DNA from: a virus
Lineage: Duplodnaviria; Caudoviricetes
Length of the DNA stretch: 64,000 bases
Direction: 5' to 3' (one strand)
IMG/VR virus record: IMGVR_UViG_2775506835_000006
Span: 17,517 to 81,516 of that record
Under the pieces are notes generated by a model. That model did not search any database. It was not told where the DNA came from and was given only the letters and a program-made list of their open reading frames with translations. Below are positions 19,021 to 64,000 of this stretch, piece after piece. Positions within the stretch are counted from its first letter, which is position 1. Each line of letters starts with the position of its first letter. The position numbers were made by a program, and so were the translations under genes.

Positions 19021-19057
19021 AGGACACACCAAGATAAGTTTGGAAGGGAGTAGTGGT

Positions 19058-19642: not shown

Positions 19643-19691
19643 ACAATTCTCCTGATCAGCTGTAACAGCCTATCAGGAGAATTGTTTATTT
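19641..19691. terminator. Bidirectional terminator between convergent endonuclease and hsdS
   Basis: AAACAATTCTCCTGAT...ATCAGGAGAATTGTTT inverted repeat. Confidence 0.65.
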
Positions 19692-19813
19692 TACGTTATA
19701 TTGAGTTTTAGTTGCCTTCCGCCCATAATTTCAAGGGTAGCTTCCGTATCCATAATCCACTGGTCTTTTTCTTTGCGCGACACGATCACCGGAATGGGGG
19801 CCAGTTTTCCATT

Positions 19814-25853: not shown

Positions 25854-26358
25854 CTTTTAATCCTCCTCTAAAAGATTGAATAATCCATTTACTAGCTTTT
25901 AAGTATTGCATGAAATAACCCATATTTTCCCCAACGGGCGGCCCCTGAAATTTTTATGTACTCACGTGAAATCTGAACTTAGCACATAGTAAGTTGCCAT
26001 GGCTCTGTCAGTCCCTTTGCAGTAACATAATCCTAGAGATATCACCATATTCCACCATTTTCTTCATTATAATTCATTAATGCGAGCAATACAAGCAGAG
26101 TATGGAAAAGCTGTCAAAGACAAAACCTCGGTGGCCATTTGTAGCCTCAAGAGATTAATCAAATAGGGTGTTTTCTGCTACCATAAATGTACCGAAAAAC
26201 AATCCGATATCAAGCGATAAATGCGATTTAAAAAAATGATAAAATAATTGCTTATGATAAAAATATTTGGTATAGTTAATACAAAGATTATTTAAAGATT
26301 TACGTTTTAATGAGTAAGCATTTATTAAGTTATCTGGCAGGGAAATCAACAGAATGAG

Positions 26359-32229: not shown

Positions 32230-32332
32230 CTAAGGAAGTAAGCCGGTCAACTGGCACAAGGATTCAAATCCCTTTACCCTCCGACAAAAGCCGCATGGTT
32301 AAGCCGTTTTCGGACAACCATGCGACTTTTTT
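32230..32332 (+). repeat. Degenerate tRNA-Ser 3' fragment plus terminator (relict att site)
   Basis: Diverged copy of 32657-32759 including the GCCGCATGGTT...AACCATGCG hairpin. Confidence 0.7.
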
Positions 32333-32650: not shown

Positions 32651-32712
32651 CCCCTGCTAAGGGAGTAGGTCGGGCAACTGGCGCAAGGGTTCAAATCCCT
32701 TCTTCTCCGCCA
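32651..32712 (+). tRNA. tRNA-Ser(GCT) 3' fragment from anticodon arm to CCA; att site, not an intact tRNA
   Basis: CCCCT-GCT-AAGGGAG, long variable arm, GGGTTCAAATCCC T-arm, TTCTCCGCCA end; acceptor 5' strand and D arm absent. Confidence 0.85.
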
Positions 32713-32760
32713 AAAGCCGCATGGTTAAGCCGTTTTTCGGACAACCATGCGGCTTTTTTG
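32713..32760. terminator. Terminator between att site and integrase 3' end
   Basis: AAAGCCGCATGGTT...AACCATGCGGCTTTTTT. Confidence 0.75.
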
Positions 32761-32836: not shown

Positions 32837-33951
32837 TTAAAGCTGATCCACAGCTTTTAAGAGTTCTTCCAAAGGAGTATGAATGTAGTTCTCGTAGGTG
32901 GTTTCAAAATCAGCGTGCCCGCCCGCTTCTGCAATCACCGCTGGGGCAATGGTGCTCTTGCTTGCGAGGCGCGTGAAATAGGTATGCCGGCAAGTGTAGG
33001 GAACAAGGTGCCGGACGCCTACACGCTCTACAGTCTCCCAATAGGCAGCATAGAAATTGTCTTCATTCATTTCAAGTAGCTTGCGGCGTCGGGAATGCAT
33101 GAGTTCCCGGATGATGGGGACGATCTTTGTGGCGATCGGGATTCTTCGGTTTGTGCCTGCTTCGGTTTTGTTTCCTCCGATCATATACCGTTCATCCAGA
33201 TAAATGTTTTTTAAAAGGATGTCGAAGAGTTCTCCCGGGCGCATACCGGTATATAGAAGAATCAGTATGTATCCGGTAAAAGGGTGCAGCCTCTGGCCGA
33301 TGTCGTTGAGCTCATTAAAGTCTTTCCAAAAACGCTGCACTTCCAGATCGTCAAACGCTTCTCGCTGTTTCTTTTTTAACTCAGGAAGTTCCAGATTCTC
33401 TGTTTTATTATAGGTGCAGATTTCTTTTTTCATCGCCAGTTTGTACAGGTGCGAAAGCATGTCTCGCATATCCCTGGCGGGGTAATAGGTATTCGTCATT
33501 CTATTGATAACGGTTTGCATATCATCCACACCGGTTTCGGAAATTGGCTTCCGATGCAGGGCGGCCAGTCGCTTCCAGGCATACCCAAGCTTGTCCTTCT
33601 GCGATTTGCTGAGCTTTTGGTATTTGCGCGATTCCAGAAACTCGTTGTGCAATTGTTCAAAGGTGATACCTGCTTTGTCGCTTGTGCCCGCCAAAGTAGG
33701 GAGGTAGTCCACCGCATCCTTTTTCCTTTCAAAGGTTTTGGTGGCCTTCTTCCGATGAAGATTTCCGTCGTCTCCTATGTAGTAGTAAAGCGTGACTTCG
33801 GCAACGTACTTCTTACCGCGCTGATATACGGTTCCGGTACCGTTCCCCCTGGACTTAGGTTTGCGCTCCCTGGCAGCGAGACCCCGCAGTAAAGGCAATA
33901 TGCAGAACTGTCGGGAATCTCCTTTCCGCATTTTTTGTTTTTACAAATCAC
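32837..33951 (-). CDS. int: Tyrosine integrase; N-terminal zinc ribbon appears to be in a different frame (probable frameshift near 33870-33885)
   Basis: 'YTGMRPGEL', 'KTEAG', 'YTCRHT', 'GH', 'YIH'; AAGGAGG RBS precedes GTG at 33951. Confidence 0.85.
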
Positions 33952-36648: not shown

Positions 36649-36870
36649 GTGAACAAAGACAGTCCATACATAAAGCACAGCCGTCTGGGCGTGATCTTGT
36701 TTGTTACCGGCCTGATCGGGGCCTTCCTCACAGCCATGGCGTCGGACAGCGGAATGCTGACCGTCTACCAAGTGTTGATTATGACAACGGCAGAGAGTTT
36801 GGCTATGGGGATTGGCGGGTTGCTGCGTGATAAAGATTCACAGAATGGAGGTCGAGAAAAACAAAAATGA
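36649..36870 (+). CDS. Small two-TM membrane protein
   Basis: AAGGAG RBS, two hydrophobic segments. Confidence 0.55.
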   Translation: MNKDSPYIKHSRLGVILFVTGLIGAFLTAMASDSGMLTVYQVLIMTTAESLAMGIGGLLRDKDSQNGGREKQK

Positions 36871-37982
36871 AAAGCTGTATGGAGAGAATGAAGGAGAATC
36901 ACACAGACGAGAAAATCGCTTCGTTTCGGGTAAAACAGAAACTACCGTATGAAGCAAAAATAAACTATGCATACACACGCGCATGGGAGTTCTACAACGA
37001 GTGTGGCAAGCGAGGACTGAACTGTCATGTATCCGTAGGTGGTCTGGACAGCATTACTTTGCTGTTGTTTTTGCGGTCCATTGGGATAGATGTTCCAGCG
37101 GTTTCGGTATCGACCCTGGAGGACAAGAGCATTCAGGCCATACATAAAACATTGGGAATCATTTCACTGAAACCTTTAAAGAGCAAAACACAAGTTCTGC
37201 AGGAATGTGGGTTCCCGGTACTGTCTAAAGAAACGGCGTCGAAGATCGAGCTGCTACAGAATCCATCTCCAAAGAATGCCACAGTCCGGCATGCAATCAT
37301 CACAGGAGAAACCGGAGCATACGGAGGAAACCGGACAGGCACCCGGATGAAGATGGCTCAGAAATGGCTGGAACTGTTTGCAGGAGGTGAAAATGAACGG
37401 GAGGATGTGCAATATCAATGTGCGCCGTTTAAAGTATCCGCCAAGTGTTGCTATTACCTCAAAGAGAAGCCATGTGATGACTGGGCGAAAGAACACAACA
37501 GTGTACCGTATCTGGGTCTCATGGCGTCCGAAGGAGGTCGCCGCCAAAAGTCGCTCATGATGAATGGATGCAACTACTTTGGAAAGACAGCGATACGGTC
37601 AGCGCCATTTGCGATATTTGACCGCCAAGATCTGTTGCAGCTTGCCCTTGACCTGGATGTACCTGTTCCAGAGGTATACGGCACCATAGAATGCCAAGCA
37701 GATGGCACGCTTTACACAACAAGAGCACAGAGGACAGGCTGCTCCATGTGCGGGTTTGGAATCCAGCTCGAAAAGAGACCGCATCGATTTGACCGGCTCT
37801 ACGAAGACAACCCGAAAGAATGGAATTTTTGGATGCACCGATGTGTGAAAGATCCAGTTACAAATGAAGTATATGGGTGGGGTAGGGTGCTGGACTACAT
37901 AGGGGTACATTGGACACAGGGATCATTACAAACAGATCTGGACTTGCAAGCAGGGAAAACTGCCAGCAGAAAGAAAGGATGA
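36867..37982 (+). CDS. PAPS-reductase-like (PP-loop, Fe-S) phage protein
   Basis: 'SVGGLDS' PP-loop, 'KCCYYLKEKP', 'RTGCSMCGFG'. Confidence 0.8.
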   Translation: MKSCMERMKENHTDEKIASFRVKQKLPYEAKINYAYTRAWEFYNECGKRGLNCHVSVGGLDSITLLLFLRSIGIDVPAVSVSTLEDKSIQAIHKTLGIISLKPLKSKTQVLQECGFPVLSKETASKIELLQNPSPKNATVRHAIITGETGAYGGNRTGTRMKMAQKWLELFAGGENEREDVQYQCAPFKVSAKCCYYLKEKPCDDWAKEHNSVPYLGLMASEGGRRQKSLMMNGCNYFGKTAIRSAPFAIFDRQDLLQLALDLDVPVPEVYGTIECQADGTLYTTRAQRTGCSMCGFGIQLEKRPHRFDRLYEDNPKEWNFWMHRCVKDPVTNEVYGWGRVLDYIGVHWTQGSLQTDLDLQAGKTASRKKG

Positions 37983-37989
37983 CGAAGAC

Positions 37990-38253
37990 TTGAGATTGCG
38001 AGAATATCCATTGGGGAACCGCAATATTGTAGGTGCCCGTGTTACGGAAGCACGCCGCCGTGTGAACATGCCTCAAAGAGTCTTACTTGCAAAAATGCAG
38101 GTCAAAGGCATAGAACTGAACACATCCGGTTTATCCAAATTGGAAGGGCAGCACCGGTATGTTATGGATTTTGAACTTGCGGCGCTGGCTGATGTTTTGG
38201 ATGTAAAAGTGGATTGGCTCCTTGGAAGAGACGACTACATAAAGGGGAAGTAG
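37990..38253 (+). CDS. XRE-family HTH protein
   Basis: 'NIVGARV...LSKLEGQHRYVMDFEL..LADVLDV'. Confidence 0.75.
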   Translation: MRLREYPLGNRNIVGARVTEARRRVNMPQRVLLAKMQVKGIELNTSGLSKLEGQHRYVMDFELAALADVLDVKVDWLLGRDDYIKGK

Positions 38254-38255
38254 AA

Positions 38256-38549
38256 ATGCAGAAGGACAAAAAAGAAGCCGCCCTGGGCGTTACGAGCACC
38301 CAAAGCGGCAAAGCGAAATGCGACAACATTTCTAATCAAAGTGTAGAGCAGAATAGCGTGAATGTCAAGACGCTGGAAATGGTAAAGGAATTGGTTTGGT
38401 TAAAGGAAAACGTGGAAAAGCGGTATACCGCCGGCAAGGTGGATTCCTGTTATGTGTATACCCATGACGATGATAACGGTGCACAGGCAGGTGTTTCCTT
38501 TACGTGTGCGGGAGAGCTGTACACGTTGACATTGCATCATGAGGTTTAA
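38256..38549 (+). CDS. Phage hypothetical protein
   Basis: ATG 38256 after GGGG RBS; tight operon. Confidence 0.55.
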   Translation: MQKDKKEAALGVTSTQSGKAKCDNISNQSVEQNSVNVKTLEMVKELVWLKENVEKRYTAGKVDSCYVYTHDDDNGAQAGVSFTCAGELYTLTLHHEV

Positions 38550-38560
38550 ATGGTAGAGAT

Positions 38561-39046
38561 ATGACACGTGCAGAGTTGATATCCATCTTAAATACGACAC
38601 TGGATGCTACCTTGAGAGACTGTAAAGAGGACAACCCCATTGTATTCTGGACGTTCTTCATGAATCACTTTGACGGAACAGTTCGCCGCAAAATCGGTGA
38701 TGATCTGGAACGCAAGGGAAAGAACCGATACACAGGAGAACCAGCAAAAGCCAAACAGACAGAATCTGCGGTAATAAGCAAATGTGACCAGTGCTGGTGT
38801 GACACATGCAAGAACTTTGATGACTGTGTGATTGATATGGAGGACTGTGATGCAGAGGTGGAGCCATGTCCCTGTGATGCATGTGTAGACAGAGACTGCC
38901 CACCTTATTCACCCATTACAGCGGAACCGCCATGCGGCAAATACCGCGCACACGAAGCAGGAAGGATGGAACATGCCCAAGAAAAAGAACAGAAACAGAA
39001 TATTTATCAGCCAAAAAGAAGCCTGCGAAAACTGCCAGTGCCATGA
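38561..39046 (+). CDS. Cys-rich hypothetical protein
   Basis: CxxCxCxxC...CPCxxC...C cluster. Confidence 0.55.
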   Translation: MTRAELISILNTTLDATLRDCKEDNPIVFWTFFMNHFDGTVRRKIGDDLERKGKNRYTGEPAKAKQTESAVISKCDQCWCDTCKNFDDCVIDMEDCDAEVEPCPCDACVDRDCPPYSPITAEPPCGKYRAHEAGRMEHAQEKEQKQNIYQPKRSLRKLPVP

Positions 39047-39209
39047 CTGCGCAAAGCGGGAAATCTGCCGGCTGCGCCGTCCACCGCCTCCGCCACCAGA
39101 ACGGGAAATGCTGCCATATCCCTGTCAGGGCTGCGGGAGGGATGGGGTTTACCAGCCCTTTGTCCCGAGGACTACGGCGGCGATCTGCCAGATGTGCATA
39201 ACGTCGTAG
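38973..39209 (+). CDS. Cys-rich hypothetical protein (paralogous motif to upstream gene)
   Basis: CxxCxCxxC...PYPCxxC...CxxC; AGGA RBS. Confidence 0.5.
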   Translation: MPKKKNRNRIFISQKEACENCQCHDCAKREICRLRRPPPPPPEREMLPYPCQGCGRDGVYQPFVPRTTAAICQMCITS

Positions 39210-39223
39210 GGGGGACCGGTGAA

Positions 39224-39418
39224 ATGAAACCGCCCTATGATAATACAATTTGCCCACTATGCGGAAAGGACGTGCAACAAACGCGTGTCTGGACACATTG
39301 TCCATTGTATGAAGCTATGATTTGTCAGGATCACTGCTATGCCGGCTGTTCTTCCAGAAATGAATGGTCCCCGCACTGCAGGTACGATGCCGCATTGGGA
39401 CAGGTAAACGGCAATTGA
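39224..39418 (+). CDS. Small Cys/His-rich protein
   Basis: CxxC...C...CxxHCxxxC...C. Confidence 0.5.
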   Translation: MKPPYDNTICPLCGKDVQQTRVWTHCPLYEAMICQDHCYAGCSSRNEWSPHCRYDAALGQVNGN

Positions 39419-39616
39419 ATATGAATAAAAATCACCCATCGACATGAGGCCCGGCAGCCGTCGATGGGTGAAGCATTACCCGGATAGTATCCGGAGCAAA
39501 TACATTGTACACCATCTGCTCCATGTGTATTATCCCAATAGGCAAAAGTCCGGGCCTTTTCTGCCTTGGTTGAGGTATTAACATTACGGGCATAACTGGG
39601 AGAGGGAGGAAGAGCG

Positions 39617-40420
39617 GTGTACCTGAAGAAGACCTGTAAAGCTGGAATCACTATAGAAGTACACAAGAGCTATTCCGCCCGGTACGGCCGAAACATCCCA
39701 AGGGGAAAAAGAGAAAGCCGCACACCGGAGGCGATGAAAAAATACAACGAGAAGATGGCGTGGAGAAAGCTCACCCGGCAGATCAACGCGAACTTTGTTC
39801 CCGGGGATCTATTCCTGACCTGCACCTACCGGAAGGAGGTGCGTCCGGATCCACAGCGGGCGAAGCAAAATATAGAGAATTTCCTGGACCGTGTACGTAG
39901 GCGTTTCAAAAAGGCAGGGGTGGAGTTTAAATACATTCTGGTGACAGCCTATGGAAAGCAGGGCGGGATCCATCATCACGTGATCATTCCTGCATTTGAT
40001 TATCAGGTTGTTACAGCATGTTGGCCGCACGGAGCTATGCGGTTTGAGGCCCTGTATCCAGATGGCGAATACTCCGCCCTTGCCTGGTATCTTATCAAAC
40101 AATCCCGCCTGTCCCCAGATGGAAGGGAATCCATTCCCGGGAATCGATGGTCCGGAAGCCGGAATCTTATCAAGCCGGTGGAGAAGGTGCAGGAGGTAGA
40201 CGCCAGGGAGTGGCGCGAGGAACCGAAACCTGTTAAAGGCTATTACATAGATCCGAATTCTGTAGAGAATGGGATTTCGCCGGTCACGGGGATTCCATAT
40301 CAGTTCTACAGGATGATTCAAATACAGTCATTACAAAAGGAAAGAGAAAGTTTAACAAATACAAAGCGATCCAAGGGAGAGAAACTAAAAGATAAACGAA
40401 GTAAAGGACATTCTAAATAG
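39617..40420 (+). CDS. HUH-superfamily rolling-circle replication initiator-like protein
   Basis: Motif I 'FLTCTY', motif II 'IHHHVII', motif III 'YLIKQ', 'RWSGSRNL'; GGAGG RBS. Confidence 0.75.
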   Translation: MYLKKTCKAGITIEVHKSYSARYGRNIPRGKRESRTPEAMKKYNEKMAWRKLTRQINANFVPGDLFLTCTYRKEVRPDPQRAKQNIENFLDRVRRRFKKAGVEFKYILVTAYGKQGGIHHHVIIPAFDYQVVTACWPHGAMRFEALYPDGEYSALAWYLIKQSRLSPDGRESIPGNRWSGSRNLIKPVEKVQEVDAREWREEPKPVKGYYIDPNSVENGISPVTGIPYQFYRMIQIQSLQKERESLTNTKRSKGEKLKDKRSKGHSK

Positions 40421-40688
40421 AATTAAAAGTAAAATCAACCGGTCGTAAGTGTTTAAAGTACAGCGGCTTAAAGAGCAAAAGTCACGTGCGTTGAGCTTTT
40501 TCTAACGAGCATATAGATAAAGTGCGAATCGCAAGCTCACATAGATTTCTTAAGAGATTCGCACCTCGCATAGTTACTGGATTTTTTGCATTTTAATTCT
40601 CATACAGGGGAATTGTTTTCTCATTTTTATGGGATTCGCATTTTAGGCCTTTACAACCCGCATGGTTACTGGGTATAATAGGGGTGCA
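40421..40688 (+). promoter_or_regulatory. CRISPR leader with promoter
   Basis: AT-rich; inverted repeat GTGCGAATC (40522-40530) / GATTCGCAC (40556-40564); TTTACA (40650)-N18-TATAAT (40674) just before repeat 1. Confidence 0.75.
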
Positions 40689-41056
40689 GTCAAAATCCAC
40701 GCCCCGTAAGGGGACGGAAACCCCCTGCTTCCCGATGCGGTAAATCCCGAAGTCGTGTCAAAATCCACGCCCCGTAAGGGGACGGAAACAGCTCTTTCTA
40801 CATCCAACTGATAAGTTTCATAGGTCAAAATCCACGCCCCGTAAGGGGACGGAAACGGCTGACCGCCAAGCCGCACCAGTAAAATGCGCGTCTAAATCCA
40901 CGCCCCGTAAGGGGACGGAAACATTCCAAAGCTGCTTTAGCTTTGTAGGATTACCGGTCTAAATCCACGCCCCGTAAGGGGACGGAAACCCGCCCTGAAT
41001 ATCATTCGTCCCATAAAAGATGGGTCTAAATCCACGCCCCGTAAGGGGACAAAAAG
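40689..41056 (+). CRISPR. CRISPR mini-array, 6 repeats and 5 spacers, no cas genes in window
   Basis: 33-nt repeat GTC(A/T)AAATCCACGCCCCGTAAGGGGACGGAAAC at 40689, 40757, 40824, 40890, 40957 and 41024 (last degenerate at its 3' end); unique spacers of 35, 34, 33, 34, 34 nt. Confidence 0.97.
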
Positions 41057-41097
41057 AAGCGCCCATTCCGGAAACTTGCCGGAATGGGCGCTTTGTT
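41057..41097 (+). terminator. Terminator closing the CRISPR transcript
   Basis: Perfect 15-bp stem AAGCGCCCATTCCGG / CCGGAATGGGCGCTT then TGTT. Confidence 0.7.
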
Positions 41098-41199
41098 CGC
41101 GTCTAAAAACTGCATCTGTTCCATTTGTGCGATACTTAGAAATAATAGAAGGTATCAATATATCGCATACCACAGCGGTTAAGAATGGAGGCAGGCAGC

Positions 41200-41610
41200 G
41201 TGGGGCGCAGAGACCTGAATTTGGATGAATACAATATCACAAAACTACAGTATCGAGAACTTCATAACTTTTGTTTGCAATATGCTGATAAGAAACAGCA
41301 GCTTGCGGAACTGAAAAATCCATATGGGAGTTCACAGGGTTACAATACGCCGACTGGCTGTACAATAGGAGATCCAACTGCAAGGACAGCGGAACGAATC
41401 ATAATCCTTTCTAAAGAGATTGAAGCAATTGAACAAACCGCTATGGAGATCGCCCCGGAAGAATACCAGAATATTCTGTTGGCGGTAACGGAGGACGTTC
41501 CCTGGCATTTCCTACAGCTGTTAAAAGGGTTAGAAATGGGAAGGCATGACTTTGAATGTGCTAGAAGGCGCTTTTACTATAATCTTGCACAAAGAAAAGG
41601 GATGATATAA
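41200..41610 (+). CDS. ArpU/RinA-like late transcription regulator
   Basis: 'GDPTARTA...IEQTA...RRRFYYNLA'; position just before terminase. Confidence 0.6.
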   Translation: MGRRDLNLDEYNITKLQYRELHNFCLQYADKKQQLAELKNPYGSSQGYNTPTGCTIGDPTARTAERIIILSKEIEAIEQTAMEIAPEEYQNILLAVTEDVPWHFLQLLKGLEMGRHDFECARRRFYYNLAQRKGMI

Positions 41611-41769
41611 GGAAATATTTTATATTGCTTGGCGTTCTGAACACATACCTATGGTTTATGATAGAATTACCGAAAACAAAATAAAATACAAGATCTTCTT
41701 CTCTTCCTTCCGTGATAGCGCTCTGCATTCGCAGGGCGCTATTTCTTTACCTGAAAGGAGGCCATTGTA

Positions 41770-41976
41770 TTGAATTACAAAGAAACGATAGCAGAATGTG
41801 AGGCCGAAATAGCCGTTATTGACGCAAAGCTTGCCCAGATCAGAACCAGCAACAATTGGCTGGAGAACGCCCGATACAATCAGCTCTCTTGTATGCGCGG
41901 GGACCTGTGTCTGCAGCTCCACGCGGCACGGATCGCAGCGAGCAGGGGCCGGCCACCGGATGGAGGTGATCCGTAA
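41770..41976 (+). CDS. Hypothetical protein
   Basis: AAAGGAGG RBS, TTG start, overlaps terminase start. Confidence 0.55.
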   Translation: MNYKETIAECEAEIAVIDAKLAQIRTSNNWLENARYNQLSCMRGDLCLQLHAARIAASRGRPPDGGDP

Positions 41977-42497
41977 TGGCATTAAAAGCAAAACAAAAAC
42001 GATTCGTTGAAGAATACCTTGTTGATTTAAATGCAACGCAGGCGGCAATCCGCGCCGGATATTCTCCGGAATCTGCTGGATCAATCGGGAGTGAAAACCT
42101 GCATAAACCTGAAATCCGCACGCGTATAGACAAGGCTATGGCCGAACGCTCGAAACGGACCGGAATCAACGCCGACCGTGTCCTTATGGAATTGGGTAAG
42201 ATTGCCTTCATCAATGCCACCGACGTGATCAATATGGATGATGCGACAATCTTGTCTGAAGCCAATCGCGACGACACAGCCGCAATTGCATCCGTGAAAG
42301 TCAAGACCATACCCGGAGAAGATGGAGATGGTGTCGAACGGGAAATCCGCTTGGCTGATAAACTAAAAGCTTTGGAATTGCTGGGTAAACATTTGGGCCT
42401 CTTTACCGATAAGGTAGAAGTGAAAGGGCAGATCGACACCGGGCAGAAAAAGCTTGAGGACATTTTAAGCCAGCTGCGAGGGGATTCCGGTGAATGA
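41976..42497 (+). CDS. terS: Terminase small subunit
   Basis: 'KQKRFVEEYLVDLNATQAAIRAGYS', 'DKLKALELLGKHLGLF'. Confidence 0.95.
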   Translation: MALKAKQKRFVEEYLVDLNATQAAIRAGYSPESAGSIGSENLHKPEIRTRIDKAMAERSKRTGINADRVLMELGKIAFINATDVINMDDATILSEANRDDTAAIASVKVKTIPGEDGDGVEREIRLADKLKALELLGKHLGLFTDKVEVKGQIDTGQKKLEDILSQLRGDSGE

Positions 42498-43854
42498 GCG
42501 CCTGATACTTTCAGAAAAGTATAAAGCCTTTCTCCGGTGCCGGGCACCGTATGAGTTCCTGGAGGGGACCACGGCCGCCGGCAAAACCACGGTGGGGCTG
42601 TTCAAATTCATGCTTCGCGTTGCGGAAAGCCCGAAGAAAATACATATCCTTTCCGGCCTTGACCTTGGCACAATCGAGAAGAACATTATCAACAAAGACC
42701 TGGGGATTCTTGACGACTTCGGCCCGCTGGTGGAATACAATGCGTCCGGCCGCGGACAGAATTCCTTGCCGCATTTGCTTTTCCATGCGCCGTCAGAGGA
42801 CAAAATCGTTTACGTGCTTGGCTACGATAACAAGGCCCGCTGGAAAAAGGCTCTGGGCGGACAGTACGGGTGCCTGTACATTGATGAGATCAATATTGCA
42901 GACATGGAATTCGTCCGTGAAGCGTCTATGCGTTGCGACTACCTGTTGGCCACGCTCAACCCGGATAATCCGGATCTTCCTATCTACTCGGAATACATCA
43001 ACCATGCCCGTCCTTTGCCGGAGTGGGAAAACGAGACACCAAAAGAAATATTGTCGATGCTCAACGAAAAACCAAAGCCAGGCTGGGTGCATTGGTTCTT
43101 TTCTTTTGAACATAATCTCGGGTTGCCAGCGGAAAAGGTGCAGCAGATCAGGGACAGCGTCCCGAAGGGTACAAAGCTTTATAAAAACAAAATTCAGGGC
43201 CTGCGCGGCCGCGCAACAGGGCTGGTGTTCAACTTGCAGCCGCATAATCTGGTTTCCGCCAAGTGGCTTCTGGAACAGATGCAGAGCAATCAAATTAAAT
43301 TTCTGCAAGTGTCTGCAGGCGTAGATACATCGTATTCGCAGCAGTCAGCCGATACATTTGCATTCGTGTTTTCCGGTATTACGACCGACAGGCGGAAGAT
43401 CACGCTGGCCACGGAGGTACACAACAACCGGGGTCTAACAACGCCGCTGGCGCCCAGCGATATACCACCTCTGCTGATCACGTTCTTGGAGAAGTATCGC
43501 ACCATCTTTGATCTGTTCGCCCGCAGCGTCTTCATCGATTCCGCGGATGAGGCCACGATCATTGAATGCCAGAAATACAAACGTCTGCACGGAAGCGTCT
43601 ATGAGTTTTGCCCGGCCTGGAAGAAGACAAAAATCATTGACCGTATCAATTTACAGTCCGGCTGGCTGGCGAGCGGGGATTATCTCCTTGTAACAGAATA
43701 TTGCAGAGCGGAGATTGATGAACTGAATGCATATAGCTGGAAGGAAGACAAAGACAATGAGCCGGAGGACGGCAACGACCATACGATCAACGCAGACCAG
43801 TACAGCTGGCTGCCGTACAAAGGCAGGATAGGGGGCAAGGTGATGGTTACTTGA
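42490..43854 (+). CDS. terL: Terminase large subunit
   Basis: Walker A 'GTTAAGKT', Walker B 'YIDE', 'TLNP', nuclease 'GVD' and 'DGNDHTINA..Y'. Confidence 0.92.
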   Translation: MNERLILSEKYKAFLRCRAPYEFLEGTTAAGKTTVGLFKFMLRVAESPKKIHILSGLDLGTIEKNIINKDLGILDDFGPLVEYNASGRGQNSLPHLLFHAPSEDKIVYVLGYDNKARWKKALGGQYGCLYIDEINIADMEFVREASMRCDYLLATLNPDNPDLPIYSEYINHARPLPEWENETPKEILSMLNEKPKPGWVHWFFSFEHNLGLPAEKVQQIRDSVPKGTKLYKNKIQGLRGRATGLVFNLQPHNLVSAKWLLEQMQSNQIKFLQVSAGVDTSYSQQSADTFAFVFSGITTDRRKITLATEVHNNRGLTTPLAPSDIPPLLITFLEKYRTIFDLFARSVFIDSADEATIIECQKYKRLHGSVYEFCPAWKKTKIIDRINLQSGWLASGDYLLVTEYCRAEIDELNAYSWKEDKDNEPEDGNDHTINADQYSWLPYKGRIGGKVMVT

Positions 43855-45326
43855 AATTGAGGGAGAAGGTGAAAGATATGCTGCGCAATTGGCTGCAAAT
43901 CCAGCCCGCAACGCCGAACGGGATCGTAATCCAGGAGCCCTTGGATTTTCAGGCGTCGGTGATACGCAATCAAATTTGGTATCGCGGGGAGGCTGCGGAG
44001 CTGGAGCAGCTCTACAAGCAGCTTGGAGCGCAGGACAGTACGAACGCATCCCGGTTTTGGGCTGCCGTGCCCGCCAACGCGATGAAACTGCGCAAAATTC
44101 ATTCCGGCCTGCCCGCGATCCTGGTAGACACACTGGCGTATTTGGTCAAGTCGGATATGGATGATGTAGCTTTTAAAGACAACTGCGGGGAAGCAGAGTG
44201 GAAGGCGATCACAGAAGAACTGGATTTTCAAGATACCGTTGGACAGGGTGTCGCCGGCGCGCTGAAAGCAGCGGACGGGGCCTGGAAAATATCCATAGAT
44301 ATAACCGTATCTCAGTACCCGATCGTCGAGTTTTATGAAGCGGACCGCGTGGAATACATCCAAAGCCGCGGGCGTGTAATAGGTGTGAAATTTTGGTCGG
44401 ACCATTCAGACGGCTATAAGGTGTACCGGCTATGTGAGGAATACGGGAAGGGGTATGTTTCGTACGCCCTGTATGACGGGACCAGTGAAGTCCCGCTCGA
44501 CCGCATACCGGAGCTGGCGGAATTGAAACCGGTTGCTTTTGATGGGGACTTCATGATGGCGGTGCCGTTCAAAGTCTTTGAGAGCGCCAAATTCCCAGGC
44601 CGCGGAAAAGCTCTGTATGAAAGCAAACTGGACAGCTTTGACGCGCTGGATGAAGTCATCAGCCAATGGTGGGACGCCATGCGCGCGGGCCGGGTGAAAA
44701 AGTATATCCCACGCGACCTGTTGCCGGTAGACCCCAAAACAGGAAATCTGTTGCCGCTGAATGATTTTGGCAGCGAGTACATCACTACGGAATCGCTGAC
44801 GGATGAAAACGGCGTGAGTAGAATCGATACCATACAGCCGGAAATCCGGTATGAAGCGTTTCTGTCTTCCTATACGGCCGCGCTGGACATGTGCCTGCAG
44901 GGGGTTGTTTCCCCGGCCACTCTGGGCATTGACGTTGGTAAGATGAGCAGCGCGGAGGCCCAGCGGGAAAAAAAGGATGTCACAGGGTATACGCGCAATA
45001 CCATAACCGGAGTTCTGGAAAAAGTGCTGCCGCAGCTGGTGTCGACGATCCTGATGGTCAACGATCTTATGCAGGGACGCGCCCCGGGAAACTACGAGCC
45101 ATCTGTGGGCTTTGGCGAATATGGCGCACCGTCTTTTGATAGCCGGGTGGAGACAGTCAACAGGGCCGCCGCCGCCAATACCATGAGCATAGAAACACAG
45201 GTGGATGAGCTGTGGGGGAACAGTAAAGACGACGGATGGAAGACCGGTGAAGTTGCCCGCATCAAGCAACTGCGCGGGATCGAGACGGTAGATGGACCGC
45301 CCGCGGTGGGGGATGAGCTGGCATGA
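43851..45326 (+). CDS. Portal protein (A118-like)
   Basis: 491 aa after TerL; 'SPATLGID', 'AQREKK'. Confidence 0.8.
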   Translation: MKLREKVKDMLRNWLQIQPATPNGIVIQEPLDFQASVIRNQIWYRGEAAELEQLYKQLGAQDSTNASRFWAAVPANAMKLRKIHSGLPAILVDTLAYLVKSDMDDVAFKDNCGEAEWKAITEELDFQDTVGQGVAGALKAADGAWKISIDITVSQYPIVEFYEADRVEYIQSRGRVIGVKFWSDHSDGYKVYRLCEEYGKGYVSYALYDGTSEVPLDRIPELAELKPVAFDGDFMMAVPFKVFESAKFPGRGKALYESKLDSFDALDEVISQWWDAMRAGRVKKYIPRDLLPVDPKTGNLLPLNDFGSEYITTESLTDENGVSRIDTIQPEIRYEAFLSSYTAALDMCLQGVVSPATLGIDVGKMSSAEAQREKKDVTGYTRNTITGVLEKVLPQLVSTILMVNDLMQGRAPGNYEPSVGFGEYGAPSFDSRVETVNRAAAANTMSIETQVDELWGNSKDDGWKTGEVARIKQLRGIETVDGPPAVGDELA

Positions 45327-47831: not shown

Positions 47832-48725
47832 ATGGCAGTATATGATTATGCGGAACTGTTCACCCGTCAGCTTGCGCAGAAATACGAAAGGGAACTGTGC
47901 TCCGACGCACTTACCAAAAGCAACTTAGGGGTGCAGTTTATCAACGCACAGACAATCAAACTTCCGCGTATGACCCTGAGCGGATACAAGGACCACACCC
48001 GCACGCCGGGCTTCAACGCCGGCACACTGTCCAACGACTGGGAACCGAAAAAGCTGGAGCATGACCGCGACGTGGAATTCTTCATCGATCCGATGGACAT
48101 CGACGAAACCAATCTGGTCACGTCCGTAGCGAATATCCAGAACACCTTTGAGGAGGAACAGGCGATCCCGGAAAAGGATTCTTATCGCTTCTCCAAACTG
48201 CATGCAGAGCTGTTGCAATACAGCGTGACGCCGGATTCCACGGCGATCACCGCGCAGAATATTTTGGAGATGTTCGACGAGTATATGGCCAAAATGGACG
48301 AGGCCGGCGTCCCGGAAGAAGGCCGTATCATCTACGCAACGCCCGCGGTGAGGAAGGTTATCAAAGAGGCAGAGGGTGTACAGCGCATGATGGGTGTCAC
48401 GTCCGTCGGCGGCATCAACCGCCAGGTGCACAGCCTGGATGATGTTCAGATCAAGATGGTTCCGGCCGCCCGCATGAAGACGAAGTATGACTTTACCGCT
48501 GGGTGCGTTCCGGCTTCTGATGCAAAGCAGATTAATTTCATTCTCCTGCATCCGTCTGCGGTCATTTGTCGGGATAAGTACAGCTATATCAAGCTGTTCA
48601 CGCCGGGCACCGACAGCCGCACCGCCGACGGATACCTGTACCAGAACCGTAATTACGGAGACTTGTTCCTGATTGAGCGGAAGGTTGCGGGTGTTGTAAT
48701 GAATGCGAAAGCTGCGGGCGCATAA
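47832..48725 (+). CDS. Major capsid protein
   Basis: 'HDRDVEFFIDPMDIDETN', 'IPEKDSYRFSKL', 'YQNRNYGDLF'. Confidence 0.9.
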   Translation: MAVYDYAELFTRQLAQKYERELCSDALTKSNLGVQFINAQTIKLPRMTLSGYKDHTRTPGFNAGTLSNDWEPKKLEHDRDVEFFIDPMDIDETNLVTSVANIQNTFEEEQAIPEKDSYRFSKLHAELLQYSVTPDSTAITAQNILEMFDEYMAKMDEAGVPEEGRIIYATPAVRKVIKEAEGVQRMMGVTSVGGINRQVHSLDDVQIKMVPAARMKTKYDFTAGCVPASDAKQINFILLHPSAVICRDKYSYIKLFTPGTDSRTADGYLYQNRNYGDLFLIERKVAGVVMNAKAAGA

Positions 48726-61436: not shown

Positions 61437-61931
61437 ATGAACATGGACGAACATGTTGTGATTGGAATCAAAACAACCGTCACAGCGGCCTGCGCGGCCT
61501 TGTCCGCCTGGCTGGGCTGGTTTGGGTGGCTTGTCGTCGCTTGGACCGCCTGTATGGTAATGGATTACATAACAGGCTCTGCAGCGGCCTGCCGGGCGGG
61601 GGAGTGGAGCAGCGCGGTTGCACGGGATGGTATTTGGCATAAGACAGGGGCCATGGTCGCGATGGTTGCCGCAGCGCTGGCCGACTGGATGATCGGTTTG
61701 GTTGTCAACAACATTCCGGCGGTTGTCCTGCCGTGGGACTACTCCGTGCTGCTGTGCCCCGTGGTCCTGGCATGGTACATCCTCACAGAACTGGGGTCGA
61801 TCGTGGAGAATGCCGGCAAGCTGGGCGCGCCCGTCCCGGCATTCCTGGCCAGGATCATTGCCGCCTGCAAAGGCAGCGTGGACGCGGCAGGGGATAAGCT
61901 CGCCGGCGGAGAAGAAAAAGAAGACCAGTGA
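61437..61931 (+). CDS. Phage holin
   Basis: Closely similar to 16343..16831. Confidence 0.9.
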   Translation: MNMDEHVVIGIKTTVTAACAALSAWLGWFGWLVVAWTACMVMDYITGSAAACRAGEWSSAVARDGIWHKTGAMVAMVAAALADWMIGLVVNNIPAVVLPWDYSVLLCPVVLAWYILTELGSIVENAGKLGAPVPAFLARIIAACKGSVDAAGDKLAGGEEKEDQ

Positions 61932-61984
61932 AAACAAAGCCCTGCTTCTCACGAGGCAGGGCGATTTTCTGTATGGAGGGACAC

Positions 61985-64000
61985 ATGATTGTTTTAAACG
62001 AAGACTGGACATTTACGTCGAAGGGCGGTACCTCACTTGGCTACGTCGGTGAAAACGAAGTCTGCACCCTGAAAATCCAGAAGCTTGGAACGGAATACTT
62101 GGACTGGGATATTGTGCTGGATGTATCCCAGCCAGGCAAGAAGAACATCTGGGCCGTGGAGAAAACAGAAGAAGCCGGTAATATGGTCCTGTCAGTGCTG
62201 ATCAAACGGGAGTACATTGCTGCCGCCGGGAGCATCACGATCCAGCTGCGGGCCACGCATGCGGACGGCCGTGTCAAAAAGTCTGCGCAGCTCACATTGT
62301 CCGTAAGCCCAAGTATCAACGCCCCGGATGTGGTTCCGTCGCCGCTGCCGTCGGAATTCGCGGAATATGAGCTGCGGATTCTGGACGTCAAAGAGGCGGT
62401 GGAGGCGGACGCCGACCGGGCCGCTAAGGCAGCGCTCTGTTCACCGCAAATTGGCGAGAATGGCAACTGGTACACATGGAACAGTACAACCGGAGAGCTG
62501 AGTGATACCGGAATTCCGGCCAGCGGAAACGCGGAGTGGAACTTCTTTGGAACGACGCCCTGCCGGGTGTCAGGTCCGTCCATCAGTGGGGTGAAAATGG
62601 TATCCTCCACGGAGTGCAGTTACCGGCTGTACTCCGATACCGTGAAGGATATGGACAGTGCGGGCCGGACGATGAACTGGCTGACTGAGAGCCATTCCAA
62701 CGGCGTATATGAGTTTACCGTCAGCATTGTAAATAATAAGCCCAGCGGATGGTATCAGGTCTTCTGGTCCATGAAGTTCACCGGTCTGGAGATAGGGAAG
62801 GCGTATAAGCTGTACATCGATACAACAGGCCTTACGCCGGATTCCACGACCACAGGGATGCATTTTGGACGATTTTTGTTGGCCAGTGTAAACAATGGGT
62901 CTAAAGGTGATTTGCTTATAAACACCACAGAAGTCGATCATGCCAGATTGAGTTCCTGGGAGTTCATAGCAACGACGCCAGATGTACTCTTGGAATATTA
63001 CGCGGGAAAAGAAATCTCAGAGTTGGTAAATGGCTATCAAGTTCGCTTCAAGGATTTGTACATCAATTACGCGGACGCGGAGAGCGGACATACCCCAATC
63101 CTGAATCAGTCCGGTTCATTTACGGGGGAGCTGGTATTCCCGGAATATACGGACAAATTGCATTATGAATCTACGCCGTCCTGTTCTGTGTACTATTCTG
63201 AAGCCAAGTCCAAGCTTTTTACAATTAATGGCAAGGGACCGGATGCAAGCGGCAATATAGAGATTCCAGTCAGCCGGCTGCAGAGCAGGACGCTGGCCTG
63301 CTTTGGAGACAGTATTACAGGGGATTTTCAGCCGCCGATGGACTATCCCTCCGTAATTGCAAAGCTGACCGGTATGCAGGTATATAACCTTGGGGTGGGT
63401 GGCTGCCGTATGTCGCAACACACGGACCAGTACTATGACGCCTTTAGTATGTATCGGTTGGTGGACGCCATAACCTCCGGAGATTACACATTGCAGGAAG
63501 CGGCGGTGGGGCATACCGTAAATTATGCAGCCGACCGTATAGCGTCATTAAAATCCATTGACTGGACAAAGATAGACTATGTCACCATTCTATTTGGAAC
63601 GAATGATATTCATGGAGGCGTATCACTGGATCACGCAGATGCCCCCAAAGATGTTACAACCTACCTGGGCGCGGTCCGATATAGCTTGAAAGTACTTTGG
63701 AGTCGCTATCCGCATCTGCGGGTTTTGCTTTTAACTCCTATCTACCGTTACTGGGATAATGAACAGGTAGACAGTGATGAAAAAATGTTTGGAAACAAGC
63801 ATTTTTACGAATATGGAAACGCGCTCCTTCAGTTGGCAAAGAATTACAAAACGCCGGTGTTGAATTTGTATGACACTTTGGGAATCAACAAATGGAATCG
63901 GAGACAGTATTTCTCGAACGGGGATGGGACACATCCAAATGATTTGGGTCGTGCGCTGTTGGGGGAAAAGATTGCAGGAAAGCTTTTGGGCGATTTTTAA
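61985..64000 (+). CDS. SGNH/GDSL hydrolase with BppU-like N-terminus
   Basis: FGDS, GTND, DGTHP blocks; homologue of 16894..18882. Confidence 0.85.
   Translation: MIVLNEDWTFTSKGGTSLGYVGENEVCTLKIQKLGTEYLDWDIVLDVSQPGKKNIWAVEKTEEAGNMVLSVLIKREYIAAAGSITIQLRATHADGRVKKSAQLTLSVSPSINAPDVVPSPLPSEFAEYELRILDVKEAVEADADRAAKAALCSPQIGENGNWYTWNSTTGELSDTGIPASGNAEWNFFGTTPCRVSGPSISGVKMVSSTECSYRLYSDTVKDMDSAGRTMNWLTESHSNGVYEFTVSIVNNKPSGWYQVFWSMKFTGLEIGKAYKLYIDTTGLTPDSTTTGMHFGRFLLASVNNGSKGDLLINTTEVDHARLSSWEFIATTPDVLLEYYAGKEISELVNGYQVRFKDLYINYADAESGHTPILNQSGSFTGELVFPEYTDKLHYESTPSCSVYYSEAKSKLFTINGKGPDASGNIEIPVSRLQSRTLACFGDSITGDFQPPMDYPSVIAKLTGMQVYNLGVGGCRMSQHTDQYYDAFSMYRLVDAITSGDYTLQEAAVGHTVNYAADRIASLKSIDWTKIDYVTILFGTNDIHGGVSLDHADAPKDVTTYLGAVRYSLKVLWSRYPHLRVLLLTPIYRYWDNEQVDSDEKMFGNKHFYEYGNALLQLAKNYKTPVLNLYDTLGINKWNRRQYFSNGDGTHPNDLGRALLGEKIAGKLLGDF

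What the first reader, a model, noticed from the sequence alone, without database searches (positions are those of the whole stretch)
40421..41097. Self-contained, cas-less CRISPR mini-array carried by a prophage
Seen: a full expression unit (leader, TTTACA-N18-TATAAT promoter, 6 repeats and 5 unique spacers, degenerate last repeat, 15-bp-stem terminator) between the replication and late-regulator genes, with no recognisable cas gene in 64 kb. Known: some viruses carry mini-arrays that program host Cas effectors. Inference: this prophage supplies guides that redirect host CRISPR machinery against competing phages.
Basis: partly seen in the sequence, partly recalled or inferred. Interest (0 to 1): 0.88.

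Follow-up and report, generated by a model that had tools for sequence, protein, structure and literature searches.

The report
Prophage CRISPR array matching host Csm
A prophage in a gut-type Clostridia genome carries a complete CRISPR array without cas genes, whose repeats and leader match a host type III-A system lying next to the prophage and whose spacers match other phages' genes; this is a good new example of a known trick.

Summary
Window 40421-41097 holds a leader, a TTTACA-N18-TATAAT promoter, six 33-nt repeats, five unique spacers and a strong terminator hairpin. It sits inside a prophage, between the replication initiator gene and the terminase genes.

Its 13-repeat array has a repeat 32/33 identical to the phage repeat and a leader 137/170 identical.

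Two of five phage spacers match phage genes at 30/34, both antisense to the mRNA as type III targeting requires. One hits a terminase lineage in three other genera. The other hits the tail/GDSL gene of sibling prophages, while the prophage's own copy matches only 27/34.

None of 38 prophage ORFs hit a Cas model.

Cas-less prophage arrays that rely on host Cas are known from C. difficile and from archaeal viruses, so this is a new member of a known kind. The scan had already noted this stretch in an overlapping window.

The parts
32837..33931 (-). Tyrosine integrase of prophage B (left end). tRNA-Ser(GCT) 3' fragments lie just upstream at 32230-32332 and 32651-32723.
   Evidence: PF00589, 53.1 bits. 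The 73-nt fragment is identical to C11:429695-429767, inside tRNA-Ser.
39617..40420 (+). Replication initiator (HUH/rolling-circle type). Its stop codon abuts the leader.
   Evidence: PF23343, 57.4 bits; phrog_3584, 1e-59. Homology to sibling prophages (92-97% over 36650-40372) ends here.
40421..40688 (+). Leader of the phage array. The last ~170 nt are homologous to the leaders of the host type III-A arrays.
   Evidence: 137/170 identical to the host array leader and 128/170 to the 'empty' leader; the best of 200 shuffles reached 109. Alignment A1.
40522..40564 (+). 43-nt inverted-repeat leader element, GTGCGAAT-N27-ATTCGCAC.
   Evidence: 9 occurrences in the genome, and 9 of 9 lie upstream of CRISPR arrays; shuffles give 0-1.
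40650..40679 (+). Sigma-70-type promoter TTTACA-N18-TATAAT, 9 nt upstream of repeat 1.
   Evidence: 11 of 12 consensus positions. The same boxes are present in both host leaders.
40689..41056 (+). CRISPR array of 6 repeats of 33 nt (40689, 40757, 40824, 40890, 40957, 41024; the last is degenerate) and 5 spacers: S1 40722-40756, S2 40790-40823, S3 40857-40889, S4 40923-40956, S5 40990-41023.
   Evidence: The three leader-proximal repeats share A at position 4 and the three distal ones share T, which fits polarised growth.
40790..40823 (+). Spacer 2, which matches large-terminase genes of prophages in three other genera.
   Evidence: 30/34 in L030, L031 and L032, each inside a ~585-aa ORF with PF20441 and each antisense to the ORF.
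40990..41023 (+). Spacer 5, which matches the GDSL/SGNH tail-type gene of sibling prophages.
   Evidence: 30/34 at C11:22380 (prophage P2), antisense to the ORF; 28/34 at C12:173403; 27/34 for the prophage's own copy.
41057..41093 (+). Terminator hairpin closing the array unit.
   Evidence: Stem of 15 pairs (scan) or 16 pairs (fold); -38.8 kcal/mol, z = -5.3.
41185..41610 (+). First gene after the array (phrog_11237, function unknown). It is followed by the small and large terminase, portal and major head genes.
   Evidence: phrog_51 TerS 41976-42497, TerL 42490-43854, portal 43851-45326, major head 47832-48725.
61928..64000 (+). GDSL/SGNH tail-fibre-type gene, the last gene of prophage B. Its own site homologous to spacer 5 is at 63585-63618.
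   Evidence: PF13472; phrog_5240 tail fibre; 81% aa identity to the P2 copy; self-match 27/34.

Best explanation
This is a genuine, transcription-competent CRISPR array carried as cargo by a temperate siphovirus-like prophage (prophage B, window ~32.7-64.05 kb). It has no cas genes of its own and works through the host's type III-A (Csm) system, which lies directly to the right of the prophage.

Proposed mechanism, step by step:
1. The leader promoter (40650-40679) drives a ~400-nt pre-crRNA that ends at the hairpin at 41057-41093.
2. Host Cas6 cuts in the repeats. Their hairpin and 3' handle are identical to the host repeat, which should give crRNAs with an 8-nt ACGGAAAC 5' tag.
3. The crRNAs load into host Cas10-Csm2-5.
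4. When another phage transcribes a matching late gene (terminase, tail/GDSL gene), the complex binds that RNA.
5. The Cas10 GGDD cyclase makes cyclic oligoadenylate, which activates the NucC DNase encoded in the locus. Cas10 here shows no N-terminal HD motif.
6. The infection is stopped, probably by an abortive route that protects the lysogen population.

The prophage's own homologous site is diverged, so it is spared.

What is shown: the anatomy, the repeat and leader homology, the cas gene content, and the spacer matches with their orientation. What is inferred: transcription, processing, loading, signalling and exclusion.
For: Array anatomy.

It lies inside a phage. The integrase, Rep, TerS, TerL, portal, major head, tape measure, holin and GDSL tail genes flank it on both sides. 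Three sibling prophages printed (C11:438k, C12:158k, C9:55k) have protein-coding genes in the same slot. Two IMG/VR relatives (L048, L049) show the same gene arrangement as the C9 and C12 siblings.

The prophage is cas-less: 0 of 38 ORFs hit a Cas model.

Host partner. cas10/csm1 scores 490 bits (cut-off 170), csm2 54 (30.6), csm3 199 (90), csm4 207 (55) and csm5 101 (38.3). cas6 is PF10040 at 59 bits (cut-off 25). NucC has E = 3e-72. GGDD is present at residue 528.

Compatibility. The phage repeat is 32/33 (copies 1-3) or 31/33 (copies 4-5) identical to the host repeat, and the last 24 nt are identical. The leader is 137/170 identical, against a shuffle maximum of 109.

Targets. S2 matches 30/34 in 3 of 401 family genomes, all three inside TerL ORFs (PF20441 in 3 of 3), and all antisense. 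S5 matches 30/34 in a co-resident sibling prophage, antisense, against 27/34 for its own copy, and the mismatches fall mostly at third codon positions.

In-situ growth. The polarised repeat variants (A at position 4 in repeats 1-3, T in repeats 4-6) are what leader-end growth would produce.

Precedent from passages read. Prophage arrays of C. difficile lack cas operons, are highly expressed and rely on host Cas (PMC4556805). Virus mini-arrays with host-like leaders target related viruses (PMC6858448). NucC is a cA3-activated DNase associated with type III systems (PMC8284326).
Against: No perfect protospacer was found for any spacer. 3 of 5 spacers (S1, S3, S4) have no match better than 26/35 in the own genome, and none turned up in the phage collection, the plasmid collection or the 401 family genomes searched.

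The exact repeat was not found in IMG/VR (0 stretches), so no second phage with this array type is known.

The array-bearing form was seen only in this prophage. The two IMG/VR relatives of its Rep gene have no array.

Prophage B has no detectable right-hand att copy. It may therefore be a grounded prophage whose array now serves the host rather than a mobile phage.

The + strand U-tract of the terminator is weak.

The absence of an HD motif in Cas10 rests only on a text search of the first 120 residues and on the NCBIfam match starting at model position 62.

NucC-based immunity would also kill the lysogen, so any benefit is at population level (inference).
Confidence: 0.62

Rival explanations
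1. The type III-A locus is itself cargo of prophage B. The element would then run from the integrase to the tmRNA gene (about 40.3 kb) and encode its own Csm-Cas6-NucC system with three array units. The array in question would be one array of a phage-encoded CRISPR-Cas system, not a cas-less hijacker.
For: The terminator hairpin that ends the phage GDSL gene is shared with siblings P2, C and C12a. In prophage B it is fused, with no intervening DNA, to a CRISPR repeat plus leader that precede cas10.

The whole 90.6-kb block between tRNA-Ser and ssrA (two prophages plus the csm locus) is replaced by 5.4 kb in the same-genus genome G002.

Sibling prophage A carries 13 kb of defence genes (Mrr-like, type I R-M, Hhe/PDC-S37) in the same post-GDSL slot, inside its att-bounded region.

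Sibling P2 has a Cas12f-like gene plus array in that slot.

No attR for prophage B lies between the GDSL gene and cas10.
Against: No att copy lies at the ssrA side either.

The same-genus genome G001 has the same array-csm-array architecture at 65-69% nt identity. It sits next to clpB, with no GDSL or holin homologue in the 34 kb examined.

0 of 10 other family csm loci show GDSL or holin in their fetched loci, which run to about 1.5 kb either side of cas10.

No Cas10 relative was found in IMG/VR.

The phage leader is only 75-81% identical to the two host leaders, so the three units are not recent copies of one another.
Confidence: 0.15
2. The array is a passive relic: a host array unit picked up by illegitimate or homologous recombination into a variable phage slot. 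It is carried without selected function, and may be silent or unprocessed.
For: It sits in a slot that varies among siblings. It is seen in only one prophage. 3 of 5 spacers have no target. The prophage may be grounded.
Against: Every functional part is intact: the promoter at 11/12, five undamaged repeats, and the terminator. The 24-nt hairpin and handle part of the repeat is fully conserved with the host, while the leader has diverged to ~80%, which suggests constraint. Both matched spacers have the antisense orientation required by type III systems.
Confidence: 0.12
3. The array acts as a decoy or RNA anti-CRISPR. Its repeats would titrate host Cas6 or Csm and blunt host type III-A immunity against prophage B or its relatives.
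For: Single repeat units in phages are known inhibitors (review PMC11656645, passages read). The array shares the Cas6 recognition part of the host repeat.
Against: It has five unique, normally sized spacers, two of them with phage targets, unlike solitary repeat units. None of the 12 host-array spacers matches prophage B or anything else in the genome beyond 18 nt, so there is nothing evident to suppress.
Confidence: 0.05

Closest known systems
Prophage-located subtype I-B CRISPR arrays of Clostridioides difficile (phiCD630-1/-2, phi027, skin element; Boudry et al. 2015, PMC4556805, passages read; Hargreaves et al. 2014, seen only as a citation in that paper)
   Same: Multi-spacer arrays sit inside prophages of a gut Firmicute with no cas operon in the prophage. 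They rely on the host Cas set, many spacers target phages or prophages, and the authors raise the idea of preventing infection by competing phages.
   Different: Those arrays are subtype I-B (DNA targeting, PAM-dependent), and their expression is shown by RNA-seq. This array is type III-A-associated (RNA-guided, cOA/NucC signalling) and has no expression data. Here the host cas locus is physically fused to the prophage end.
Virus-borne mini-CRISPR arrays of Saccharolobus portogloboviruses SPV1/SPV2 (Medvedeva et al. 2019, PMC6858448, abstract and passages read)
   Same: Cas-less arrays preceded by promoter-containing leaders similar to host leaders. Repeats are similar to the host's. Spacers target related viruses while the carrier's own locus is diverged. 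The proposed role is heterotypic superinfection exclusion.
   Different: Those are archaeal viruses with 1-2 spacers, perfect or near-perfect reciprocal targeting, and competition data. This is a bacterial prophage with 5 spacers and only 30/34 matches. That paper's discussion states that the bacteriophage mini-arrays described elsewhere lack leader regions; this one has a full leader.
[quoted passage not shown] 2023 seen only as a citation there
   Same: Minimal CRISPR components on phages whose repeats match host systems. The leader-plus-one-repeat unit next to cas10 resembles a single repeat unit in form.
   Different: The review defines mini-arrays as holding one or two spacers; this array has five. 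The solitary repeat here belongs by position to the host csm locus (same place as an array in G001), not clearly to the phage.
Type III CRISPR systems with a NucC ancillary nuclease (review PMC8284326, passages read)
   Same: The host partner locus combines a Cas10 carrying GGDD with a NucC-family protein.
   Different: Signalling molecule and activity are not tested here. The locus has no adaptation genes; the only cas1 in the genome is in a I-C locus on another contig.

Membership tests
CRISPR array | Three or more near-identical direct repeats of 23-50 nt, separated by unique spacers of similar length | tested here: met
   6 repeats of 33 nt and 5 different spacers of 33-35 nt. Each spacer is unique in the genome.
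CRISPR array | Repeat shared with a cas-associated array | tested here: met
   32/33 identity to the 13-repeat array beside the csm operon. Rfam CRISPR-DR families match only below threshold (19.8 bits against a gathering score of 38).
CRISPR array | AT-rich leader with a promoter at one end and a degenerate terminal repeat at the other | tested here: met
   Promoter at 11/12. Leader homologous to the host leaders. The last repeat is degenerate in its final 6 nt.
Virus-borne cas-less (mini-)array using host Cas | Located inside a viral or proviral genome | tested here: met
   Flanked by the Rep gene on the left and by TerS, TerL, portal and head genes on the right. Flanking DNA is homologous to sibling prophages on both sides.
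Virus-borne cas-less (mini-)array using host Cas | No cas genes in the virus | tested here: met
   0 of 38 ORFs between 32.8 and 64.0 kb hit a Cas model in PADLOC. Caveat: the host csm locus abuts the prophage, and its ownership is not settled.
Virus-borne cas-less (mini-)array using host Cas | Repeats match those of a host CRISPR-Cas system | tested here: met
Virus-borne cas-less (mini-)array using host Cas | Spacers target other (related) viruses but not the carrier | tested here: inconclusive
   2 of 5 spacers match phage genes at 30/34. The carrier's own copy matches at 27/34 for S5, and S2 has no in-genome match above 22/34. No perfect target was found.
Virus-borne cas-less (mini-)array using host Cas | Only one or two spacers ('mini', as defined in PMC11656645) | tested here: not met
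   Five spacers. It is better called a prophage-borne array than a mini-array.
Virus-borne cas-less (mini-)array using host Cas | crRNAs are produced and direct interference | not testable with these tools
   This needs RNA and interference data from the strain, which these tools cannot supply.
Type III-A (Csm) CRISPR-Cas system (host partner) | cas10/csm1, csm2, csm3, csm4 and csm5 in one operon, plus cas6 | tested here: met
   All five are above NCBIfam cut-offs. Cas6 is PF10040 above its cut-off, although TIGR01877 is below its cut-off.
Type III-A (Csm) CRISPR-Cas system (host partner) | Cas10 cyclase (GGDD) and HD nuclease motifs | tested here: inconclusive
   GGDD is found at residue 528. 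No HD or HN dipeptide occurs in the first 120 residues, but this is a text search only.
RNA anti-CRISPR / solitary repeat unit | A single repeat without spacers | tested here: not met
   The array has 6 repeats and 5 spacers. Only the separate unit beside cas10 has this form.

The most novel reading that the evidence does not exclude
The prophage array is not a static trophy. It would be an adaptation-competent satellite of a genome-wide CRISPR network. At least ten arrays of three types exist: III-A, I-C and Cas12f-like. Two of them lie inside prophages and one abuts a prophage end. Nine of them (9 of 9 motif occurrences) carry the same 43-nt inverted-repeat leader element, and the prophage C array has a copy with a degenerate left arm. 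The genome has a single Cas1-Cas2-Cas4 module. Phages of this family would thus plug arrays into the host's shared adaptation and interference machinery. The precise fusion of prophage B's terminal hairpin to a spacer-less leader-repeat unit upstream of cas10 would record either loss of self-targeting spacers after lysogeny or capture of the whole III-A/NucC locus as phage cargo.
Probability: 0.25. Interest if true: 0.7.

Novelty: new member of a known kind. Interest (0 to 1): 0.45.

Why it matters
If it functions as proposed, this prophage uses a host type III-A/NucC system to exclude competing phages. Most documented cas-less phage and prophage arrays are tied to type I systems or to archaeal viruses. 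This locus is unusually complete: leader, promoter, five spacers, terminator, a matching host effector next door and identifiable targets. It would therefore be easy to test in a gut anaerobe.

The surrounding genome adds several things worth a dedicated look. It holds many related prophages and at least ten arrays. All the arrays found through the 43-nt motif share that leader element across CRISPR types. One array leader is fused to a phage end. Together these bear on how arrays move between hosts and phages, and on how one adaptation module might serve several systems.

Tried and rejected
Tandem Repeats Finder reported nothing at 39500-42000. This is expected for repeats separated by unique spacers and is not evidence against the array.

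Rfam at gathering thresholds gave 0 matches in the whole window. At E <= 1 there were only sub-threshold CRISPR-DR matches.

An exact scan of IMG/VR for the repeat found 0 stretches. The scan of genome contigs found only two contigs of one uncultured Oscillibacter MAG, with a related repeat. The scan of metagenome contigs found one 1.9-kb human-gut contig with a small related array. None of these informs on phage carriage.

Rep-protein relatives in IMG/VR: 2 loci, both without an array.

The plasmid collection returned only two weak matches, to cyanobacterial plasmid records, read here as repeat-like similarity. In the phage collection only S2 gave weak TerL hits (33/37 and 31/37); the rest was noise.

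RNA evidence: no RNA holder was listed for 40300-41300. I laid contigs of two runs, X1 and X2. X1 has a 463-nt contig covering 40301-40705 with 9 differences that stops in repeat 1. X2 has pieces of the flanks and a repeat with other flanking letters. This shows that a close variant of the leader junction exists in other data (possibly the source sample), and nothing about expression.

Cas10 relatives: none in IMG/VR and none in metagenome contigs. In 401 family genomes, 10 others have a Cas10 at no more than 39% identity, and none of their fetched loci (about 1.5 kb either side of cas10) holds GDSL or holin.

I searched for a right-hand att site of prophage B. There is no further copy of the tRNA-Ser fragment and no copy of the ssrA 3' end. 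The only direct repeat of 11 nt or more between the left junction and 511300-521000 is a 13-mer, which I treat as probably chance.

Rejected idea: that the phage array is the missing content of the 'empty' host array. Their leaders are only 128/170 identical.

Rejected idea: that other arrays in the genome target resident prophages. No spacer among the 38 tested from 6 other arrays, and none of the 12 host III-A spacers, matches elsewhere in the genome at 80% or more. The 3-repeat array at C12:1,070k was not parsed by that script and its spacers were not tested.

Supplementary files of the papers were not opened. The supplementary tables of PMC4556805 and PMC6858448 may list further prophage arrays relevant to novelty.

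I ran no search for a prior description of type III-associated arrays on prophages beyond. I therefore claim only that I did not find one in those listings.
Full report
OBSERVATION. The stretch 40421-41097 is a textbook CRISPR unit. The repeat finder reports one family of six direct repeats starting at 40689, 40757, 40824, 40890, 40957 and 41024. Read at 33 nt, copies 1-3 are GTCAAAATCCACGCCCCGTAAGGGGACGGAAAC. Copies 4-5 carry T at position 4, and copy 6 is degenerate in its last six bases. The five spacers (35, 34, 33, 34 and 34 nt) are all different, and each occurs once in the 3.51-Mb genome.

A TTTACA-N18-TATAAT promoter with 11 of 12 consensus positions ends 9 nt before repeat 1. A hairpin closes the unit at 41057-41093, with a 15-pair stem by the consensus scan and a 16-pair stem in the fold (-38.8 kcal/mol for 41024-41100, z = -5.3, 0 of 200 shuffles as good). 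Its + strand U-tract is weak. The repeat RNA forms a small GC hairpin. Rfam gives only sub-threshold CRISPR-DR matches, all on the + strand.

IT IS IN A PROPHAGE. To the left lie a tyrosine integrase (32837-33931, PF00589) and a rolling-circle-type replication initiator (39617-40420; PF23343, phrog_3584) whose stop codon abuts the leader. To the right lie phrog_11237, the small and large terminase, portal, minor capsid, major head, tape measure, a holin and a 690-aa GDSL/SGNH tail-fibre-type protein that ends at 64000.

The genome is a poly-lysogen. Prophage B has relatives at about ten other places. The replication module 36650-40372 is 92-97% identical to three of them, but homology stops at 40372 and resumes near 41700. 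In the same slot the three sibling prophages I printed carry protein-coding sequence instead of an array. Two IMG/VR relatives of the Rep gene show the same arrangement. The array is therefore cargo in a variable slot. None of 38 ORFs of prophage B hits a Cas model in PADLOC.

THE HOST PARTNER LIES JUST OUTSIDE THE WINDOW. The window is C11:447398-511397. Cas10/csm1 starts 398 nt beyond its end. It is followed by csm2, csm3, csm4 and csm5, all above NCBIfam cut-offs. Next come cas6 (PF10040) and a 299-aa DUF6602 protein that PADLOC identifies as NucC (E = 3e-72). Then, on the minus strand, comes a 13-repeat array at C11:519141-519977.

The host repeat GTCAAAACCCACGCCCCGTAAGGGGACGGAAAC differs from phage copies 1-3 at one position. 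The 24 nt of hairpin plus 3' handle are identical. The 170 nt upstream of the first repeat are 137/170 identical between the phage and host arrays (shuffle maximum 109), including the same -35 and -10 boxes.

Cas10 has GGDD at residue 528. It shows no HD motif in its first 120 residues by a text search only, and the NCBIfam match begins at model position 62. The only cas1 in the genome belongs to a type I-C locus on contig C12, with cas3, cas5d, csd1, cas4, cas1 and cas2.

SPACER TARGETS. Two of five spacers have credible targets.

Spacer 2 matches 30/34 in three of 401 family genomes searched (G070, G316, G167). Each hit is inside a ~585-aa ORF carrying the terminase large-subunit nuclease domain PF20441 (3 of 3). 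Each lies at the conserved peptide YETYQLDVERAE, and in each the spacer sense is opposite to the ORF. Weaker hits to TerL genes of Rhodococcus and Faecalibacterium phages come from the same motif. This terminase lineage has no close homologue in the genome (23% identity at best).

Spacer 5 matches 30/34 in the GDSL gene of a co-resident sibling prophage (P2, C11:22380-22413), again antisense to the ORF. It matches the homologous site of other siblings at 28, 26, 26, 25, 24 and 24 of 34. Prophage B's own copy matches 27/34, with the mismatches mostly at third codon positions. The true donor of spacer 5 is thus an unsampled relative.

By my own estimate, a 30/34 match has a chance expectation of about 1e-7 in this genome and about 2e-5 in the 401 genomes. 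Spacers 1, 3 and 4 have no match.

MECHANISM. Taken together, the simplest reading is that prophage B supplies crRNAs to the host Csm complex. The leader promoter transcribes the array. Host Cas6 cuts at the conserved repeat. Csm binds late transcripts of incoming or induced competitor phages. Cas10 then signals to NucC.

NucC is described as a cA3-activated dsDNase associated with type III systems and is expected to cause abortive infection (PMC8284326, passages). The prophage's own GDSL site is diverged. Only the anatomy, the homologies and the matches are shown; every biochemical step is inferred.

The repeat variants also hint at in-situ growth. The three leader-proximal repeats share one variant and the three distal ones another. 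The host array shows the same pattern, with five proximal repeats ending GGAAGT.

WHOSE LOCUS IS THE CSM OPERON? This is the main uncertainty.

The terminator hairpin after the phage GDSL gene is shared with siblings P2, C and C12a. In prophage B it is fused directly to a single CRISPR repeat, degenerate at the junction. On the minus strand that repeat is preceded by a full leader (135/170 identical to the host array leader) that points away from cas10. The unit is an 'empty array'.

In the same-genus genome G001 the homologous csm locus (65-69% nt identity) has multi-spacer arrays on both sides. It sits next to clpB, with no GDSL or holin homologue in the 34 kb examined. The array-csm-array layout is therefore ancestral, and the empty unit is a truncated host array.

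In G002 (about 91% nt identity in the flanks), tRNA-Ser(GCT) and the tmRNA gene are 5.4 kb apart. In this genome they are separated by 90.6 kb holding prophage A, prophage B and the csm locus.

Prophages A and B have related integrases (53% aa identity), each next to a tRNA-Ser fragment. No att copy lies to the right of prophage B.

I favour a deletion that removed B's attR, the intervening DNA and the spacers of the upstream array. Selection may have favoured it because those spacers targeted a resident prophage, which is speculation. Costly type III-A targeting of prophages is the subject of PMC5754349, of which I saw only the title and the start of the abstract.

The alternative is that the csm locus is phage cargo, and I keep it at about 0.15. 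Prophage A carries Mrr-like, type I R-M and Hhe/PDC-S37 genes in the same post-GDSL slot. P2 carries a Cas12f-like gene with a 9-10-repeat array there.

COMPARISON WITH WHAT IS KNOWN. In C. difficile, five of twelve arrays of strain 630 lie in prophage regions. None of the prophage arrays has a cas operon, some are among the most abundant transcripts, and the authors raise prevention of infection by competing phages (PMC4556805, passages).

Archaeal portogloboviruses carry cas-less mini-arrays with host-like leaders that target each other. The same paper says that the bacteriophage mini-arrays described elsewhere lack leaders (PMC6858448, passages). The 2024 review defines mini-arrays as holding one or two spacers, and describes single repeat units as RNA anti-CRISPRs (PMC11656645, passages).

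The present case fits this kind. It differs in being tied to a type III-A/NucC system, in having five spacers and a complete leader, and in lying against the host locus. In the listings I did not see a type III-linked prophage array described. That is not proof that none is in print.

WIDER CONTEXT SEEN IN PASSING. A 43-nt element, GTGCGAAT-N27-ATTCGCAC, occurs nine times in the genome (0-1 in shuffles). All nine lie about 125-210 nt upstream of the first repeat of a CRISPR array. Three are III-A-type (phage B, host, empty), five are I-C-type and one is Cas12f-like. Sibling prophage C carries a 7-repeat I-C-type array at C11:122133-122560, inside its structural region. With a single adaptation module in the genome, a shared leader element across types is worth following up.

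VERDICT. It is a new member of a known kind. The scan had already noted this stretch in an overlapping window. Interest is moderate at 0.45. The side findings, namely the leader element and the phage-CRISPR fusion, carry most of the remaining novelty.

Noticed in passing
Just beyond the window end: C11:511413-511650 (window-relative 64016-64253), minus strand: An 'empty array': a full leader with TTTACA-N18-TATAAT, then one CRISPR repeat that is degenerate at its 3' end. The repeat is fused with no intervening DNA to the terminator hairpin of prophage B's last gene. The unit lies just upstream of cas10, where the same-genus genome G001 has a multi-spacer array.
   Followed up: partly
Genome-wide: C11:24454, 487919 (window 40522), 511606, 520101; C12:233173, 1063578, 1070570; C9:380732; C10:507245: A 43-nt inverted-repeat element, GTGCGAAT-N27-ATTCGCAC. 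All 9 genome occurrences lie upstream of CRISPR arrays of three different types (III-A, I-C, Cas12f-like); shuffles give 0-1. The genome has only one cas1. The element may be a shared leader signal for adaptation or regulation.
   Followed up: partly
C11:122133-122560 (outside the window), inside sibling prophage C (att repeats at C11:97610 and 139110): A second prophage-borne array: 7 repeats of a type I-C-like repeat with a degenerate last repeat and a terminator. A type I-C cas locus with only a 3-repeat array lies on contig C12 (233225-240717). The five full spacers I extracted have no match elsewhere in the genome.
   Followed up: partly
C11:22941-25236 (outside the window), directly after the GDSL gene and hairpin of sibling prophage P2: A 509-aa ORF with Cas12f/Cas12u4-like PADLOC matches (3e-13) and a weak OrfB_IS605 match. 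It is followed by a 9-10-repeat array with a 33-nt repeat and the common leader element. This is a candidate compact type V system at a prophage end.
   Followed up: partly
window 18908-32151: Defence cargo at the right end of the neighbouring prophage A. It holds an Mrr-like nuclease (244 aa), a type I R-M system (hsdS 454 aa, hsdM 471 aa, hsdR split into 814 + 250 aa ORFs) and a 1930-aa DUF4011 helicase-nuclease matching Hhe/PDC-S37.
   Followed up: partly
window 32230-32332 and 32651-32723; C11:429667-429756; C11:520394-520741: Two tRNA-Ser(GCT) 3' fragments sit between prophages A and B; one is 100% identical over 73 nt to the real tRNA 50 kb to the left. The whole 90.6 kb between tRNA-Ser and the tmRNA gene is replaced by 5.4 kb in the same-genus genome G002. 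Prophage B has no right-hand att copy.
   Followed up: partly
C11:519141-519977 (host array, outside the window): The five leader-proximal repeats end GGAAGT and the eight older ones end GGAAAC, which would change the crRNA 5' tag. Spacers 10 and 11 are identical duplicates. None of the 12 spacers matches elsewhere in the genome.
   Followed up: no
window 32743 and window-relative 64106: A 13-nt identity, AACCATGCGGCTT, between the terminator after the tRNA-Ser fragment at the left end of prophage B and the -35/-10 spacer of the empty leader at its right end. My rough chance expectation is 0.15, and its meaning is unclear.
   Followed up: no
window 36650-40372 versus C11:434356-438073: A 3.7-kb stretch, 93.9% identical, is shared by the tandem prophages A and B about 50 kb apart. 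It is a substrate for homologous recombination between them.
   Followed up: no
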